A stretch of 2,849 bases of DNA from a virus (taxonomy: Duplodnaviria > Heunggongvirae > Uroviricota > Caudoviricetes). The position numbers and the translations under genes are program-made. This document shows positions 1 through 2,849 of this stretch, in pieces. Within the stretch, counting starts at the first letter, position 1, and each line of letters starts with the position of its first letter. The DNA is taken from the IMG/VR virus record IMGVR_UViG_2563366894_000007; one strand, 5' to 3'. The notes below the pieces were generated by a model. That model worked only from the letters and a program-made list of their open reading frames with translations, did no database searches and was not told where the DNA came from.

Positions 1-201
1 GCCGCAGCCAGTTCTGCAAGCGCGGCGGCTGCTTCTGCCACTGCATCAGCTAACAGTCAAAAAGCAGCAAAAACCAGTGAAACCAACGCAAAGGTGAGCG
101 AAACAGCGGCTGCGAACTCAGCGAAAGCATCGGCAGCAAGCCAGACGGCAGCTAAAGCAAGCGAAGATGCAGCCAGAGAGTACGCAAGCCAGGCTGCGGA
201 G
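1..201 (+). repeat. Low-complexity GC-rich coding tract (degenerate Ala/Ser-rich peptide repeats) inside the fiber gene
   Basis: Dominated by GCN/AGC/TCN codons. The translation shows reiterated A-A-K-x-S-E-x-N-A / A-x-S-A-K-A-S units. Composition is visibly more GC-rich than the rest of the window. Confidence 0.65.
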
Positions 202-1518
202 CCGTATAAATATGTCTTACAGCCGCTGCCTGATGTGTGGATACCATTTAACGATTCGCTGGATATGATTACGGGCTTTTCGCCGTCATATAAAAAAATT
301 GTTATTGGTGACGATGAAATAACGATGCCTGGCGACAAGATTGTTAAGTTTAAACGTGCATCGAAAGCAACCTATATTAACAAATCTGGTGTGCTGACAG
401 AGGCTGCCATTGACGAGCCACGATTTGAACGTGATGGCCTGCTTATTGAGGGGCAAAGAACTAATCTTCTGCTTAATTCAACAAATCCATCTAAATGGAA
501 TAAGTCAGGCAATCTGGAACTCACAGAAATATCCACGGATTCTTTTAATTTTACTTATGGGAGATTTACTGTAAAAGATACTCTTATTGGTCAGACAAGT
601 GCTATTAATATCGTAACGGTTTCTGGCAGTAAAGGGTTTGATGTCACAGGTGATGAAAAATATGTGACCATTTCATGCCGTGTAAGAAGTGATGTTGAAA
701 ATGTAAGGTGTCGTTTAAGATTTGAACACCATGATGGTTATACTTACACTTTTTTGGGAGATGCTTACCTCAATTTATCAACACTTGTAATTGATAAAGC
801 TGGTACTGCTGCAGACCGTATTATTGCAAAGGCTGTAAAAGATGAGGTTACTGGTTGGATTTTCTATCAGGCTACAATTAATGCACTAGATACAGAGAGC
901 ATGATTGGTGCGATGGTTCAATACGCTCCTGTAAAAGGTTCAGGCACAGCATCTGGAGACTATCTGGATATCGCAACTCCACAAGTGGAAGGTGGATCAA
1001 GTGCTTCGTCATTTATTGTAACTGATATAACTGCAAGCACTCGCGCAAGCGATATGGTGACAGTCCCAATCAAGAATAACCTTTATAATCTTCCTTTTAC
1101 GGTTCTTTGTGAGGTACATAAGAACTGGTATAAAACGCCAAATGCAGCGCCACGTGTTTTTGATACCGGCGGTCATCAAACCGGAGCGGCTATTATTCTT
1201 GGCTTCGGTCGTTCAACAGATTACGACGGATTTCCTTATTGCGATATTGGAGGAGCTAACAGACGGGTAAACGAAAACGCATCGCTTGAAAAAATGGTTA
1301 TGGGGATGCGTGTAAAGTCAGAGCAGTCTACGTGCTCAGTAAGTAACGGGCATATATCCAGCGAAACAAAAACCACATGGTCCTGTATTCAGAACACCGC
1401 AATTATCCGTATTGGAGGCCAGACTACAGCCGGGTTACGTCATTTATTTGGTCATGTCAGGAATTTCAGAATATGGCACAAGGCATTGACTGATGCTCAG
1501 GTGGGGGAGTCAATCTAA
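1..1518 (+). CDS. Tail fiber protein (side-tail-fiber-like), 5'-truncated by the window edge; Ala/Ser-rich N-terminal linker followed by a receptor-binding region
   Basis: Frame 1 is open from nt 1 to TAA at 1516-1518, with no stop and no start codon in the first 31 codons. The GTG at 94 used by the ORF track has AAGG directly abutting it with no spacer, so it is not a credible start and the gene begins upstream of the window. The first ~67 codons are low-complexity Ala/Ser/Thr/Lys (AAKTSETNAKVSETAAANSAKASAASQTAAKASEDAAREYASQAAE), which resembles the collar/linker region of lambda-type side tail fibers as I recall it. The C-terminus ends in a LamG/ConA-like lectin motif. Confidence 0.8.
   Translation, partial: AAASSASAAAASATASANSQKAAKTSETNAKVSETAAANSAKASAASQTAAKASEDAAREYASQAAEPYKYVLQPLPDVWIPFNDSLDMITGFSPSYKKIVIGDDEITMPGDKIVKFKRASKATYINKSGVLTEAAIDEPRFERDGLLIEGQRTNLLLNSTNPSKWNKSGNLELTEISTDSFNFTYGRFTVKDTLIGQTSAINIVTVSGSKGFDVTGDEKYVTISCRVRSDVENVRCRLRFEHHDGYTYTFLGDAYLNLSTLVIDKAGTAADRIIAKAVKDEVTGWIFYQATINALDTESMIGAMVQYAPVKGSGTASGDYLDIATPQVEGGSSASSFIVTDITASTRASDMVTVPIKNNLYNLPFTVLCEVHKNWYKTPNAAPRVFDTGGHQTGAAIILGFGRSTDYDGFPYCDIGGANRRVNENASLEKMVMGMRVKSEQSTCSVSNGHISSETKTTWSCIQNTAIIRIGGQTTAGLRHLFGHVRNFRIWHKALTDAQVGESI
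1432..1503 (+). other. C-terminal LamG/concanavalin-A-like lectin signature of the upstream fiber protein (putative receptor-binding jelly-roll domain; N-terminal extent undetermined)
   Basis: The translation GLRHLFGHVRNFRIWHKALTDAQV matches the characteristic C-terminal strand of Laminin_G_3-type domains (typical form ...DEVRIYNRALSAEEI). This is recognised by eye only. Confidence 0.5.
1500..1509 (+). promoter_or_regulatory. Shine-Dalgarno for the acidic ORF (GGTGGGGGAG), 8 nt upstream of ATG 1518
   Basis: Purine-rich GGGGGAG precedes the ATG. The ATG overlaps the upstream stop (TAATG at 1516-1520), which indicates translational coupling. Confidence 0.55.
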
Positions 1519-1799
1519 TGAAAGATTTAACACTCAAATTTGAAGACAGGGCCGACTTTTCGGCCTTTATGGAGAGTATTGGCTATTATGATGACGAGTC
1601 GATGCAGGATGATATTCTTATCGACGTGATAGGTAACGTGTACAAAGAAACCGGAGAACTGACTGAAGATGGCGAACCGGTATGTGTTAAGGAAGACGGA
1701 TATTTTGTAAACGTGCGCATCATTAATGATTCGCAAATATCGTCATTATTCGATGAATACGTGGTTGCTGTTGAGCATCAACTTCGTGGCTGGATGTGA
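1518..1799 (+). CDS. Small, strongly acidic hypothetical protein (93 aa); function unknown, possibly a fiber assembly/accessory factor
   Basis: ATG start with an upstream SD, 1-nt stop/start overlap with the fiber gene, and a TGA stop at 1797-1799. By my count it has 22 Asp/Glu against 7 Lys/Arg. I see no signal peptide or transmembrane segment and do not recognise a family. Confidence 0.6.
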   Translation: MKDLTLKFEDRADFSAFMESIGYYDDESMQDDILIDVIGNVYKETGELTEDGEPVCVKEDGYFVNVRIINDSQISSLFDEYVVAVEHQLRGWM

Positions 1800-1808: not shown

Positions 1809-1952
1809 ATGGCTACATCGACAGTAATTCCTGATGACATCAAAACGCTAAAATCCGACGTTAGCAAATTAAAAAACGATCAAGGAAGCTACGCAACAAA
1901 ATCTTATGTAGACAACAAAACTGAAATCGTTGGTGACTGCTCTGCATTATAG
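1809..1952 (+). CDS. 47-codon ORF with strong SD+ATG, ending at in-frame TAG; most likely the N-terminal segment of the downstream fiber-tip gene rather than an independent gene
   Basis: Translation is MATSTVIPDDIKTLKSDVSKLKNDQGSYATKSYVDNKTEIVGDCSAL, then TAG at 1950-1952. It is in the same frame as the 1965..2849 ORF. The ATKSYVDNK stretch resembles fiber N-terminal segments such as P2 gpH (from memory). Confidence 0.4.
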   Translation: MATSTVIPDDIKTLKSDVSKLKNDQGSYATKSYVDNKTEIVGDCSAL

Positions 1953-1964
1953 GATCAAAAAACA

Positions 1965-2849
1965 TTGCCAACAACTGGAACTATATTCAGCGGTAAGCTC
2001 CGTTTGACACATAAGACGGCAGGAGCGGAGAACGCTTATAGTGACATATATACCAGAAAAAATATTGATGGTACTAAAGATACAATGACGCGCATCATCA
2101 TGCACGACAGCAGAAAAAACATCTGTTGGGACTTTAGTGATCTTTACGGAGGAACTTTAATTTTTCCAGGTGATGACGGATACCTCAAGATGGGTAACTG
2201 CCTCATGTCATACAGTGAGCGGGGAAGTAACGCGCTTATTAAGTTTGATAATACCGACACATTGCAGATCAAATATGCTAATCACGGGTCGACCATGACA
2301 CTAAACACGCAAGGTACGGCGTATTCTGGTGTGTCGACGTTATTATGGGGAAATTCCAGCCGTCCTGTTGTTTATGAAGTCGGTGTTGATGGTGGCGCTT
2401 ATATGTTCTATGCGCAGAAAAATACCGATAACACCTATATGTTAAGCGTTAATGGTGCATGTCATGCCACCGCATTTAACCAGCATTCCGACCGGGATCT
2501 GAAAGACAACATTCAGGTGATCGATAATGCAACCGACCGCATCCGTAAAATGAACGGCTATACATACACGCTTAAAGAAAACGGTATGCCCTATGCTGGT
2601 GTCATTGCACAGGAAGCTCTGGAAGCAATCCCAGAAGTTGTAGGTTCCGCAATGAAATATCAGGACGGTGCGAGCGGATCGGAAGGTGAAGAAGGTGAAC
2701 GTTATTACACAGTAGATTATTCTGGTGTTACTGGCTTGCTTGTTCAGGTAGCCAGAGAGTCAGACGACAGAATAACAGCACTGGAAGAAGAAAACGCAGA
2801 ATTAAGACAAAGATTATCTGTAATTGAGGCGGCGCTTGCGTCTAAATAA
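1965..2849 (+). CDS. Tail-fiber receptor-binding tip protein with C-terminal intramolecular chaperone (Peptidase_S74-like) domain; start uncertain
   Basis: Open frame from the TAG at 1950 to TAA at 2847-2849. The first start is TTG 1965, with AGGA at 1951-1954 about 10 nt upstream; the next in-frame ATGs are at 2085 and 2100. The tip motif LLWGNSSRPVVYEVGVDGGAYMFYAQKNTDNTYMLSVNG resembles the conserved C-terminal tip of P2 gpH-type fibers (from memory). The C-terminus is an intramolecular chaperone domain. Confidence 0.7.
   Translation: MPTTGTIFSGKLRLTHKTAGAENAYSDIYTRKNIDGTKDTMTRIIMHDSRKNICWDFSDLYGGTLIFPGDDGYLKMGNCLMSYSERGSNALIKFDNTDTLQIKYANHGSTMTLNTQGTAYSGVSTLLWGNSSRPVVYEVGVDGGAYMFYAQKNTDNTYMLSVNGACHATAFNQHSDRDLKDNIQVIDNATDRIRKMNGYTYTLKENGMPYAGVIAQEALEAIPEVVGSAMKYQDGASGSEGEEGERYYTVDYSGVTGLLVQVARESDDRITALEEENAELRQRLSVIEAALASK
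2487..2846 (+). other. Intramolecular chaperone / autoproteolytic C-terminal domain (endosialidase-chaperone, Peptidase_S74 type)
   Basis: Hallmark motifs are present in order: HSDRDLKDNI at the cleavage site, NATDRIRKMNGYTY, YAGVIAQEALEAIPEVV, YYTVDYSGVTGLLVQVARE, and a terminal coiled-coil-like ITALEEENAELRQRLSVIEAAL. Confidence 0.75.

What the first reader, a model, noticed from the sequence alone, without database searches (positions are those of the whole stretch)
2304..2849. Chaperone-dependent-type fiber tip fused directly to an intramolecular chaperone, with a predictable autocleavage site
The WG-x-S-x-RPVV ... FY-x-Q-x-NTDN ... VNG tip motif is, to my recollection, typical of fibers that rely on a separate downstream assembly chaperone (P2 H/G, Mu S/U). 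Here there is no separate chaperone gene. Instead the tip runs straight into an S74-type intramolecular chaperone, with the conserved Ser at nt 2487-2489 in HSDRDLKDNI. The predicted mature fiber would end at or next to that Ser, and the C-terminal ~120 aa would be released after trimerisation.
Basis: partly seen in the sequence, partly recalled or inferred. Interest (0 to 1): 0.4.

Follow-up and report, generated by a model that had tools for sequence, protein, structure and literature searches.

The report
Self-cleaving chaperone on a prophage tail fibre
The end of this window encodes the well-known self-cleaving "intramolecular chaperone" domain of a short prophage tail-fibre protein; it is an ordinary, already annotated gene type, and in this copy the gene is also broken by a premature stop codon.

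Summary
Window 2487-2846 encodes a Peptidase_S74 intramolecular chaperone (Pfam E=6.5e-14). The Ser at 2487-2489 aligns to profile position 1, and its catalytic partner Lys lies 5 residues on (2502-2504). Both residues are present in all 49 homologues that have residues at these positions.

The WG-x-S-x-RPVV...FY-x-Q-x-NTDN...VNG block is real and is shared with P2 gpH (43% identity).
- In P2 gpH the block is sub-terminal, followed by the roughly 70-aa tip shared with Mu S, which was crystallised with Mu's assembly chaperone.
- Mu S and lambda Stf lack the block.
- T4 gp34 (mid-shaft, E=5e-12) and T7 gp17 carry it.

The block is therefore a conserved shaft module, not the chaperone-dependent tip. 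Among the best 150 matches in 1.84 billion cluster-representative proteins, 59 continue into an S74 domain and 47 into a P2/Mu-type tip.

The closest full-length relative, P0001, and JenP1 have Tyr there; Tritos, ESCO3, Ecol_316 and PhiR63_1 have Trp. This allele was found only in E. coli KTE202, so the copy is probably a pseudogene.

The gene family is common in E. coli prophages and is already annotated as S74/endosialidase chaperone. Interest is low.

The parts
1809..2849 (+). Short tail-fibre gene, 346 codons, interrupted by one in-frame stop. It is collinear, with no gaps, with the 346-aa genes of phage Tritos, PhiR63_1, PhiR11_1 and E. coli Ecol_316.
   Evidence: ATG 1809 is preceded by GAGGAAG. 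Length and frame are identical to the annotated CDSs of the relatives. phrog_4563 'tail fiber protein' matches at E=2.9e-180.
1809..1898 (+). Conserved N-terminal module (about aa 1-30/40), probably the anchor to the rest of the fibre.
   Evidence: 100% nucleotide identity to Tritos. The first 40 aa are 57.5% identical to the otherwise unrelated 224-aa short fibre of Drexlerviridae phage swan01. The attachment role is inferred.
1950..1952 (+). In-frame amber codon (TAG) at codon 48.
   Evidence: JenP1 has TAT (Tyr) at this codon. The closest full-length relative, P0001, also has Tyr at the protein level. Tritos, ESCO3, Ecol_316 and PhiR63_1 have TGG (Trp). The downstream ORF is identical only to ELH56107.1 / WP_024194463.1 of E. 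coli KTE202, a cluster of 2 members.
1899..2345 (+). Variable cassette (about aa 31-179), the likely specificity-determining part.
   Evidence: Nucleotide identity to Tritos is only 60-88% and is closer to JenP1/PhiR11_1, while the flanks are 97-100% identical to Tritos. This is the lowest-conservation region across 49 homologues. The receptor-binding role is inferred.
2325..2486 (+). Conserved sub-terminal shaft module (WGNSSRPVV...FYAQKNTDN...VNG...NQH), homologous to the T4 gp34 P3 beta-prism plus the start of the following triple beta-helix, and to P2 gpH 545-594.
   Evidence: The profile matches T4 gp34 963-1021 at E=4.9e-12 and T7 gp17 314-355 at E=2.6e-3. P2 gpH matches at 43% identity. 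The gp34 domain boundaries come from PMC5537660. This is the best-modelled part of the AF2 model, with pLDDT 88-93.
2487..2489 (+). Catalytic/scissile Ser (Ser175 of the 294-aa ORF, Ser227 of the full protein). The predicted scissile bond is His|Ser, between nt 2486 and 2487.
   Evidence: Aligns to Pfam S74 profile position 1. Ser in 49 of 49 homologues. By analogy with T5 pb1 Thr1263|Ser1264 and MyRF P586|S587. Cleavage itself is inferred.
2502..2504 (+). Lys of the Ser-Lys dyad (Ser+5).
   Evidence: Lys in 49 of 49 homologues. The spacing is the same as endoNF S911/K916, T5 pb1 S1264/K1269 and MyRF S587/K592.
2487..2846 (+). Intramolecular chaperone domain (Peptidase_S74), 120 aa, about 13.2 kDa.
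   Evidence: Pfam match at E=6.5e-14. The profile matches phage S16 gp37 (6F45) at E=2e-9, the MyRF ICA domain (7DC3) at E=1e-4, and GA-1 appendage protein 3GUD weakly, starting at the Ser.
2718..2840 (+). C-terminal long helix of the chaperone domain, probably a trimeric coiled coil.
   Evidence: AF2 predicts a helix at residues 252-292 with pLDDT 83-93. Trimerisation is inferred from T5 pb1 and MyRF.
1518..1799 (+). 93-aa ORF of unknown function. Its start overlaps the stop of the upstream fibre gene (TAATG). A homologue always sits between a large fibre gene and a short chaperone-bearing fibre gene.
   Evidence: phrog_1361, unknown function. No Pfam or NCBIfam hit. Homologues in the same position: swan01 50%, JenP1 46%, PhiR11_1 33% identity.
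1..1518 (+). C-terminal 505 codons of a lambda Stf-like side tail fibre, running off the 5' end of the window.
   Evidence: phrog_1419 matches at E=2e-269. NCBIfam GTA_spike_fiber domain matches at E=9e-16. The full-length Tritos homologue has phage_tail_N.

Best explanation
Window 1809-2849 is the gene for a short (346-aa) homotrimeric lateral tail-fibre subunit of a lambda-like E. coli prophage.

Layout of the protein:
- A conserved N-terminal anchor (about aa 1-40).
- A variable, probably receptor-specific cassette (about aa 31-179).
- A conserved shaft module homologous to the T4 gp34 P3 beta-prism/triple beta-helix and to P2 gpH 545-594.
- A C-terminal Peptidase_S74 intramolecular chaperone (aa 227-346).

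Likely mechanism, inferred from endosialidase K1F, T5 pb1 and MyRF:
- Three chaperone domains associate through their C-terminal coiled coil.
- They template the intertwined beta structure just upstream.
- Once that structure is formed, the Ser227-Lys232 dyad cuts the His226|Ser227 bond.
- This releases a 13.2-kDa fragment and leaves a 24.8-kDa mature subunit.

The fibre needs no separate Tfa-type chaperone because it lacks the P2/Mu-type tip that such chaperones serve.

In this particular copy (E. coli KTE202) a TAT-to-TAG change at codon 48 cuts translation right after the anchor module. The fibre is therefore most likely not made.
For: Shown by tool results:
- S74 domain above Pfam's cut-off, with the Ser at profile position 1.
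- Ser and Lys(+5) present in 49 of 49 homologues.
- The chaperone-domain profile hits S16 gp37 and the MyRF ICA domain.
- The motif profile hits T4 gp34 963-1021 and T7 gp17 314-355.
- The P2 gpH C-terminus splits into a gp34-like block (559-601) and a Mu S-like tip (602-669).
- The window protein matches only the first of these.
- Of the best 150 motif-bearing representatives, 59 continue into an S74 domain, 52 of them directly abutting, and 47 continue into a P2/Mu tip.
- The mosaic boundary of the variable cassette falls at nt 2348/2349, where the motif starts.
- The amber codon is absent from six related fibre sequences (five compared at the codon, P0001 at the protein level), and the allele is unique to KTE202.

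From the literature:
- Ser-Lys dyad, bond cut N-terminal of the Ser, coiled-coil-driven trimerisation (PMC4690869; PMC8326128).
- gp34 domain map (PMC5537660).
- Short coiled-coil fibres with C-terminal chaperone domains in small siphoviruses (PMC11990801).

Inferred, not shown: cleavage itself, trimerisation, the anchor and receptor roles, and loss of function.
Against: - No trimer model or experiment exists.
- The monomer AF2 model is mediocre (pLDDT 68.6; 46-74 over most of the chaperone domain), and Foldseek found no significant hit.
- The Arg 'folding sensor' found 14 residues before the Ser in endoNF and T5 pb1 is not at that position here; residue -14 is Ser.
- The amber codon could be a sequencing error in a draft genome.
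Confidence: 0.82

Rival explanations
1. A P2 H/Mu S-type, Tfa-dependent receptor-binding tip has been fused to an intramolecular chaperone, giving a new hybrid in which the built-in chaperone replaces the separate one for the same tip.
For: The WG..RPVV...VNG block is shared with P2 gpH. It is common in P2-like fibres that carry Tfa-dependent tips: 47 of the best 150 representatives, plus others with the same PSNWxNFDxRY joint.
Against: The part of gpH/Mu S that forms the tip in the fibre-chaperone complex (gpH 602-669, Mu S 434-503, 5YVQ) has no counterpart here. Mu S, Mu S' and lambda Stf lack the block. The block is mid-shaft in T4 gp34 and T7 gp17. Block plus S74 domain is the commonest arrangement found, not an exception.
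Confidence: 0.07
2. The gene is functional in its host. The TAG is a sequencing or assembly error, or is read through, so a full 346-aa fibre is made and processed.
For: There is only one defect. No frameshift or second stop occurs in 1041 nt, and the 3' 500 nt are 97-100% identical to the intact Tritos gene. The source is a draft genome.
Against: The sequence as given has TAG. Both the GenBank and RefSeq annotations of KTE202 start the protein downstream of it (294 and 254 aa). Wild E. coli isolates do not normally carry amber suppressors (general knowledge).
Confidence: 0.2
3. An N-terminally truncated product (294 aa from TTG 1965, or 254 aa from ATG 2085) is made and is the functional protein.
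For: These ORFs exist and are what the databases annotate.
Against: No Shine-Dalgarno sequence precedes either start. Every intact relative begins at the ATG equivalent to 1809. A truncated product would lack the conserved N-terminal module shared even with swan01.
Confidence: 0.04
4. The S74-like domain is retained in the mature fibre as a permanent C-terminal domain and is not cleaved.
For: The Arg sensor is not at position -14. No cleavage data exist for this subfamily.
Against: Both dyad residues are conserved in 49 of 49 homologues. In T5 pb1 the uncleaved domain prevents the purified fibre domain from inhibiting phage adsorption, which the authors read as masking of the receptor-binding end.
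Confidence: 0.06

Closest known systems
[quoted passage not shown]
   Same: C-terminal domain of about 120-150 aa. Ser-Lys(+5) dyad at its start. C-terminal coiled coil. Located at the end of a trimeric fibre.
   Different: The part upstream of the Ser is unrelated. The motif profile does not hit pb1 or endoNF. The protein is far shorter (346 against 1396 aa). No Arg lies at position -14.
Salmonella phage S16 long tail fibre distal subunit gp37 (PDB 6F45)
   Same: Best solved-structure relative of the chaperone domain: E=2e-9 over the whole 120 aa, including the '...N-x-SSDR-x-K' junction.
   Different: S16 gp37 belongs to a myovirus long fibre. From my own knowledge, not tested here, it receives a separate gp38 adhesin after processing. 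No gp38-like gene is seen here.
P2 gpH (with its chaperone gpG)
   Same: Shares the sub-terminal WG-x-S-x-RPVV...FY-x-Q-x-NTDN...VNG module (43% identity over 51 aa).
   Different: After the module, gpH continues with a 70-75-aa tip homologous to Mu S and depends on a separate Tfa. The window protein goes straight into the S74 domain and has no such tip.
T4 gp34 proximal half-fibre, P3 beta-prism and adjoining triple beta-helix (PDB 4UXE/5NXF)
   Same: Significant profile match of the motif block to residues 963-1021 (E=4.9e-12).
   Different: In gp34 the module is internal to a 1289-aa shaft and has no adjacent chaperone domain.
Short coiled-coil lateral fibres with C-terminal chaperone domains of small siphoviruses (JakobBernoulli Gp36, RuthEpting Gp29; PMC11990801), and the annotated homologues in JenP1, ESCO3 and Tritos
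   Same: Same overall plan: N-terminal coiled coil, then a binding region, then the chaperone domain. JenP1, ESCO3 and Tritos carry direct homologues in the same three-gene cassette, annotated as 'endosialidase chaperone' or 'endosialidase-like protein'.
   Different: None of substance, apart from the amber codon and a recombinant central cassette in this copy.

Membership tests
Peptidase_S74 / intramolecular chaperone (PF13884) | Significant match to the family profile, above the curated cut-off | tested here: met
   52.4 bits against a cut-off of 22, E=6.5e-14, profile positions 1-57 of 58 on ORF residues 175-226. The profile search also hits S16 gp37 at E=2e-9 and the MyRF ICA domain at E=1e-4.
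Peptidase_S74 / intramolecular chaperone (PF13884) | Conserved Ser at the start of the domain and Lys five residues later (catalytic dyad) | tested here: met
   Ser at nt 2487-2489 and Lys at nt 2502-2504. Both present in 49 of 49 homologues. The spacing is as in endoNF, T5 pb1 and MyRF.
Peptidase_S74 / intramolecular chaperone (PF13884) | Lies at the extreme C-terminus of a trimeric fibre/spike protein, just after a triple beta-helix or beta-prism | tested here: met
   The domain runs to the stop codon. The preceding block is homologous to the T4 gp34 P3 prism plus triple beta-helix. This rests on homology only, not on a structure.
Peptidase_S74 / intramolecular chaperone (PF13884) | C-terminal helix that forms the trimeric coiled coil | tested here: inconclusive
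   A long helix is predicted at residues 252-292 with pLDDT 83-93. The tools offer monomer models only, so trimer formation could not be tested.
Peptidase_S74 / intramolecular chaperone (PF13884) | Arg from a neighbouring chain that senses correct folding (endoNF R897, T5 pb1 R1250, both at Ser-14) | tested here: inconclusive
   Residue -14 is Ser and there is no Arg between -1 and -41. The nearly invariant Arg of WGxxxR is at -42. A different spatial arrangement cannot be excluded without a trimer structure.
Peptidase_S74 / intramolecular chaperone (PF13884) | Autoproteolytic release that is abolished by Ser-to-Ala | not testable with these tools
   Needs expression of the repaired gene.
P2 gpH / Mu S Tfa-dependent fibre tip | C-terminal tip domain of about 70 aa (NFDSRYV...INGTWYNV), the part seen in the fibre-chaperone complex 5YVQ | tested here: not met
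   No alignment to gpH 595-669, Mu S or Mu S'. gpH 602-669 aligns to Mu S 434-503.
P2 gpH / Mu S Tfa-dependent fibre tip | Adjacent downstream tail-fibre assembly (Tfa, Caudo_TAP) gene | tested here: not met
   The window ends at the stop codon. In Tritos, PhiR63_1, PhiR11_1 and Ecol_316 the next gene encodes a 95-97-aa hydrophobic protein with no Pfam hit. Only Tfa gene fragments lie further on in Ecol_316.
P2 gpH / Mu S Tfa-dependent fibre tip | Sub-tip WG..RPVV...FY.Q.N.D...VNG module | tested here: met
   Present in gpH 545-594 (43% identity) but absent from Mu S and lambda Stf. It is therefore not a defining feature of the whole group.

The most novel reading that the evidence does not exclude
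The gp34-P3-like WG..RPVV...VNG module may be a general recombination joint. Onto it, enterobacterial phages graft one of two alternative folding solutions: a built-in S74 chaperone that leaves the module as the new distal end, or a P2/Mu-type tip that needs a separate Tfa. Specificity in the S74 branch would then reside upstream of the module rather than at the tip. As an extension, the conserved end exposed after cleavage might dock another protein.
Probability: 0.35. Interest if true: 0.3.

Novelty: already known. Interest (0 to 1): 0.15.

Why it matters
This matters little beyond correct annotation.

- S74 intramolecular chaperones on phage fibres have been characterised since 2007-2010, and this gene family is already labelled as such in public records.
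- The useful corrections are practical. The gene in this window starts at 1809, not 1965. It carries a nonsense codon, so the database proteins of 294 and 254 aa are artefacts of a pseudogene. The 'tip motif' should not be used as a marker of chaperone-dependent tips.
- There is one modest general point. The same conserved shaft module precedes either a built-in or a separate-chaperone ending, and in this gene it coincides with a recombination boundary. That could help people who engineer fibre chimeras to choose junctions.

Tried and rejected
- Exact-pattern scans for the amber-containing allele found nothing: genome contigs and viral contigs.
- The look-up of encoding contigs for the 254-aa RefSeq product found no record. 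The source strain, KTE202, was identified through cluster membership instead.
- The AF2 monomer model of the 294-aa ORF had pLDDT 68.6. Foldseek against the PDB gave only non-significant hits, the best being T4 gp34 at E=0.06 and 3GW6 at E=1.6. A monomer model of an intertwined trimer is not informative, so the remaining fold-search jobs were not used.
- To test whether the 93-aa ORF is a hidden chaperone I tried Pfam, NCBIfam and PHROGs, which gave no function. The homologue search listed only relatives at least 84% identical among the best 120 hits. The AF2 model had pLDDT 40.8 and is unusable. Its role stays open.
- NCBIfam gave no hit for the fibre ORF, for P2 gpH or for Mu S.
- The promoter/terminator scan of 1400-2849 found nothing above the shuffled expectation.
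- I considered and rejected programmed readthrough of the TAG. There is no supporting context, and the relatives simply have Tyr or Trp codons at that position.

Full report
**What the window is.** The 2849 bases hold three collinear + strand genes of a lambda-like E. coli prophage tail-fibre locus.
- Nt 1-1518: the last 505 codons of a lambda Stf-like side tail fibre (phrog_1419, E=2e-269; NCBIfam GTA_spike_fiber domain).
- Nt 1518-1799: a 93-aa ORF whose ATG overlaps the upstream stop codon (TAATG).
- Nt 1809-2849: a short fibre gene.

The same three-gene cassette is annotated in temperate phages Tritos, PhiR63_1 and PhiR11_1, in many E. coli chromosomes downstream of J and lom, and in the virulent Queuovirinae phages JenP1 and ESCO3. 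In those records the third gene is called 'tail fiber protein', 'endosialidase chaperone' or 'putative endosialidase-like protein'.

**Checking the observation.**
- WGNSSRPVV (nt 2346-2372), FYAQKNTDN (2406-2432), VNG (2448-2456) and HSDRDLKDNI (2484-2513) are all present in frame. The Ser is at 2487-2489 and the stop codon at 2847-2849.
- Pfam Peptidase_S74 matches at E=6.5e-14 (52.4 bits, cut-off 22). Profile position 1 falls on that Ser.
- A profile of the C-terminal 127 residues built from 12 homologues hits the chaperone domain of phage S16 gp37 (6F45, E=2e-9) and the MyRF ICA domain (7DC3, E=1e-4). It also hits the GA-1 appendage protein weakly, starting at the Ser.
- In an alignment of 50 homologues, the Ser and the Lys five residues later are present in all 49 sequences that cover the site.
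- That spacing is the Ser-Lys dyad of endoNF (S911/K916), T5 pb1 (S1264/K1269) and MyRF (S587/K592).
- In T5 pb1 and MyRF the bond that is cut lies N-terminal of the Ser. Here the predicted cut is therefore His|Ser, between nt 2486 and 2487. It would give a 226-aa (24.8 kDa) mature chain and a 120-aa (13.2 kDa) released fragment.

**The 'tip motif'.** I fetched P2, Mu and lambda and compared directly.
- P2 gpH does carry the block (WGASTRPVV...FYSQRNTDN...VNG, residues 545-594, 43% identity).
- Mu S, Mu S' and the lambda Stf fragments do not.
- In gpH the block is not the tip. It is followed by about 70-75 more residues.
- A PDB sequence search with the gpH C-terminus splits it cleanly. Residues 559-601 match T4 gp34, and residues 602-669 match Mu S 434-503 in 5YVQ, the Mu fibre-chaperone complex.
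- The window protein matches only the first part.
- A 20-sequence profile of the block hits T4 gp34 residues 963-1021 of 1289 (E=4.9e-12) and T7 gp17 residues 314-355 of 553 (E=2.6e-3).
- In the gp34 crystal structure that stretch is the P3 beta-prism (between triple beta-helix segments 901-944 and 1014-1047) plus the first turns of the following triple beta-helix (PMC5537660).

The block is thus a widely shared shaft module. It is not the element that Tfa-type chaperones serve.

**How usual is block plus chaperone domain?** The same profile was searched against 1.84 billion cluster representatives and found 211 proteins at E<=1e-3. I classified the best 150 with local HMMs.
- 59 continue into an S74 domain; in 52 of these the two abut directly.
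- 47 continue into a P2/Mu-type tip 63-115 residues long.
- 44 are fragments or carry other tips, many with the P2-like 'PSNWxNFDxRY' joint.

The profile was built from S74-bearing proteins, so these proportions are biased toward that class. Even so, the conclusion holds that the module precedes either ending and that the S74 combination is common.

**Internal organisation of the gene.** Nucleotide identity to Tritos is 100% over 1809-1898 and 97-100% over 2349-2849. It falls to 60-88% over 1899-2348, where JenP1 and PhiR11_1 are closer.
- The downstream edge of this recombinant cassette coincides with the start of WGNSSRPVV (2346).
- Across 49 homologues, conservation rises from about 0.2 in the N-terminal two thirds to 0.4-0.5 in the motif and 0.6-0.9 in the chaperone domain.
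- The first 40 residues are also shared (57.5% identity) with a 224-aa protein of Drexlerviridae phage swan01. That protein is otherwise unrelated, sits in the same position after a 92-aa homologue of the small ORF, and has a borderline S74 match (21.8 bits against a cut-off of 22).

I infer an N-terminal anchor, a variable specificity cassette, and a conserved folding block made of the shaft module plus the chaperone domain. The anchor and receptor roles are inferences.

- The ORF from TTG 1965 is a mechanical remnant.
- The gene starts at ATG 1809, behind a GAGGAAG ribosome-binding site. It is collinear, without gaps, with the 346-codon genes of Tritos, PhiR63_1, PhiR11_1 and Ecol_316.
- Codon 48 is TAG (nt 1950-1952). 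JenP1 has TAT (Tyr) there, and the closest full-length relative, P0001, also has Tyr. Tritos, ESCO3, Ecol_316 and PhiR63_1 have TGG (Trp).
- The downstream ORF is identical only to ELH56107.1 (294 aa) and WP_024194463.1 (254 aa) of E. coli KTE202, a cluster of two entries.
- No complete E. coli genome carries this allele. The best match is 95.6% over the whole window and 89.8% over the variable part.
- There is no other defect, so this looks like a recent single nonsense mutation or a sequencing error. Translation would stop just after the anchor module.
- Any product restarted at 1965 or 2085 has no ribosome-binding site and would lack the anchor. The 'predicted mature fibre' is therefore hypothetical for this copy.

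**Separate chaperone?** No Tfa (Caudo_TAP) gene is in the window.
- The window ends at the stop codon, so I looked downstream in relatives. The next gene encodes a 95-97-aa hydrophobic protein with no Pfam hit (phrog_1443, unknown function). Only Tfa gene fragments lie further on in Ecol_316.
- The 93-aa upstream ORF has no family assignment, and its AF2 model was unusable (pLDDT 40.8). Its conserved position between the large fibre gene and the short fibre gene suggests a connector or an assembly factor for the large fibre. This is unproven.

**Comparison with what is known, and novelty.** S74 intramolecular chaperones on phage fibres and spikes are textbook (K1F endoNF, T5 pb1, GA-1/phi29 appendages, S16 gp37). 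Short coiled-coil fibres with C-terminal chaperone domains have been described in small siphoviruses (PMC11990801).
- This family (phrog_4563) is present in hundreds of E. coli genomes and is already annotated as S74.
- It passes the sequence-level membership tests. Cleavage and trimerisation could not be tested. The Arg sensor is not at the canonical -14 position, which is inconclusive.
- It fails the tests for a P2/Mu-type tip.

**Verdict.** The feature is already known, and interest is low (0.15). The most novel reading left open is that the shaft module serves as a general joint for swapping between built-in and separate-chaperone endings (probability about 0.35, modest interest).

Noticed in passing
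window 1950-1952: In-frame TAG at codon 48 of the fibre gene. JenP1 has TAT (Tyr) and P0001 has Tyr; Tritos, ESCO3, Ecol_316 and PhiR63_1 have TGG (Trp). The allele was found only in E. coli KTE202. The database proteins of 294 aa (ELH56107.1) and 254 aa (WP_024194463.1) are remnants downstream of it.
   Followed up: yes
window 1899-2348: Recombinant cassette. This stretch is 60-88% identical to Tritos and closer to JenP1/PhiR11_1, while both flanks are 97-100% identical to Tritos. The 3' boundary coincides with the start of the WGNSSRPVV motif.
   Followed up: yes
window 1518-1799: 93-aa ORF (phrog_1361, unknown function) whose start overlaps the upstream stop codon (TAATG). Homologues occupy the same slot between a large fibre gene and a short S74-bearing fibre gene in lambdoid prophages, Drexlerviridae (swan01) and Queuovirinae (JenP1). 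No family hit, and the AF2 model failed.
   Followed up: partly
window 1-1518 (domain at about nt 442-1047): The Stf-like fibre carries an NCBIfam 'phage head spike fiber' (GTA_spike_fiber) domain (E=9e-16) and a weak ConA/Laminin_G_3-like C-terminus (E=0.0046, below the cut-off). It has no S74 domain and no Tfa gene after it. The same C-terminal part occurs at 72-93% nucleotide identity in T5-like and other siphoviruses.
   Followed up: partly
L011 3194-3868 (phage swan01): A minimal 224-aa fibre: the shared 40-aa N-terminus, about 60 further residues, then a borderline S74 domain (21.8 bits against a cut-off of 22) starting at residue 99.
   Followed up: partly
L003 4173-4880 (phage JenP1), L001 6889-7182 (Tritos): The genes after the short fibre differ between lineages. 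JenP1 has a 235-aa protein with a Gly/Trp-rich N-terminus and a Cys-rich C-terminus (phrog_9288, unknown function). The temperate phages have a 97-aa hydrophobic, probably membrane, protein (phrog_1443). Neither has a Pfam hit.
   Followed up: no
L001 7410-8000, L005 6410-7000: A PinR/PinQ-type serine recombinase lies just downstream of the fibre cassette in Tritos and PhiR63_1. This recalls the invertible fibre segments of Mu, P1 and e14. No inverted alternative fibre end was looked for.
   Followed up: no
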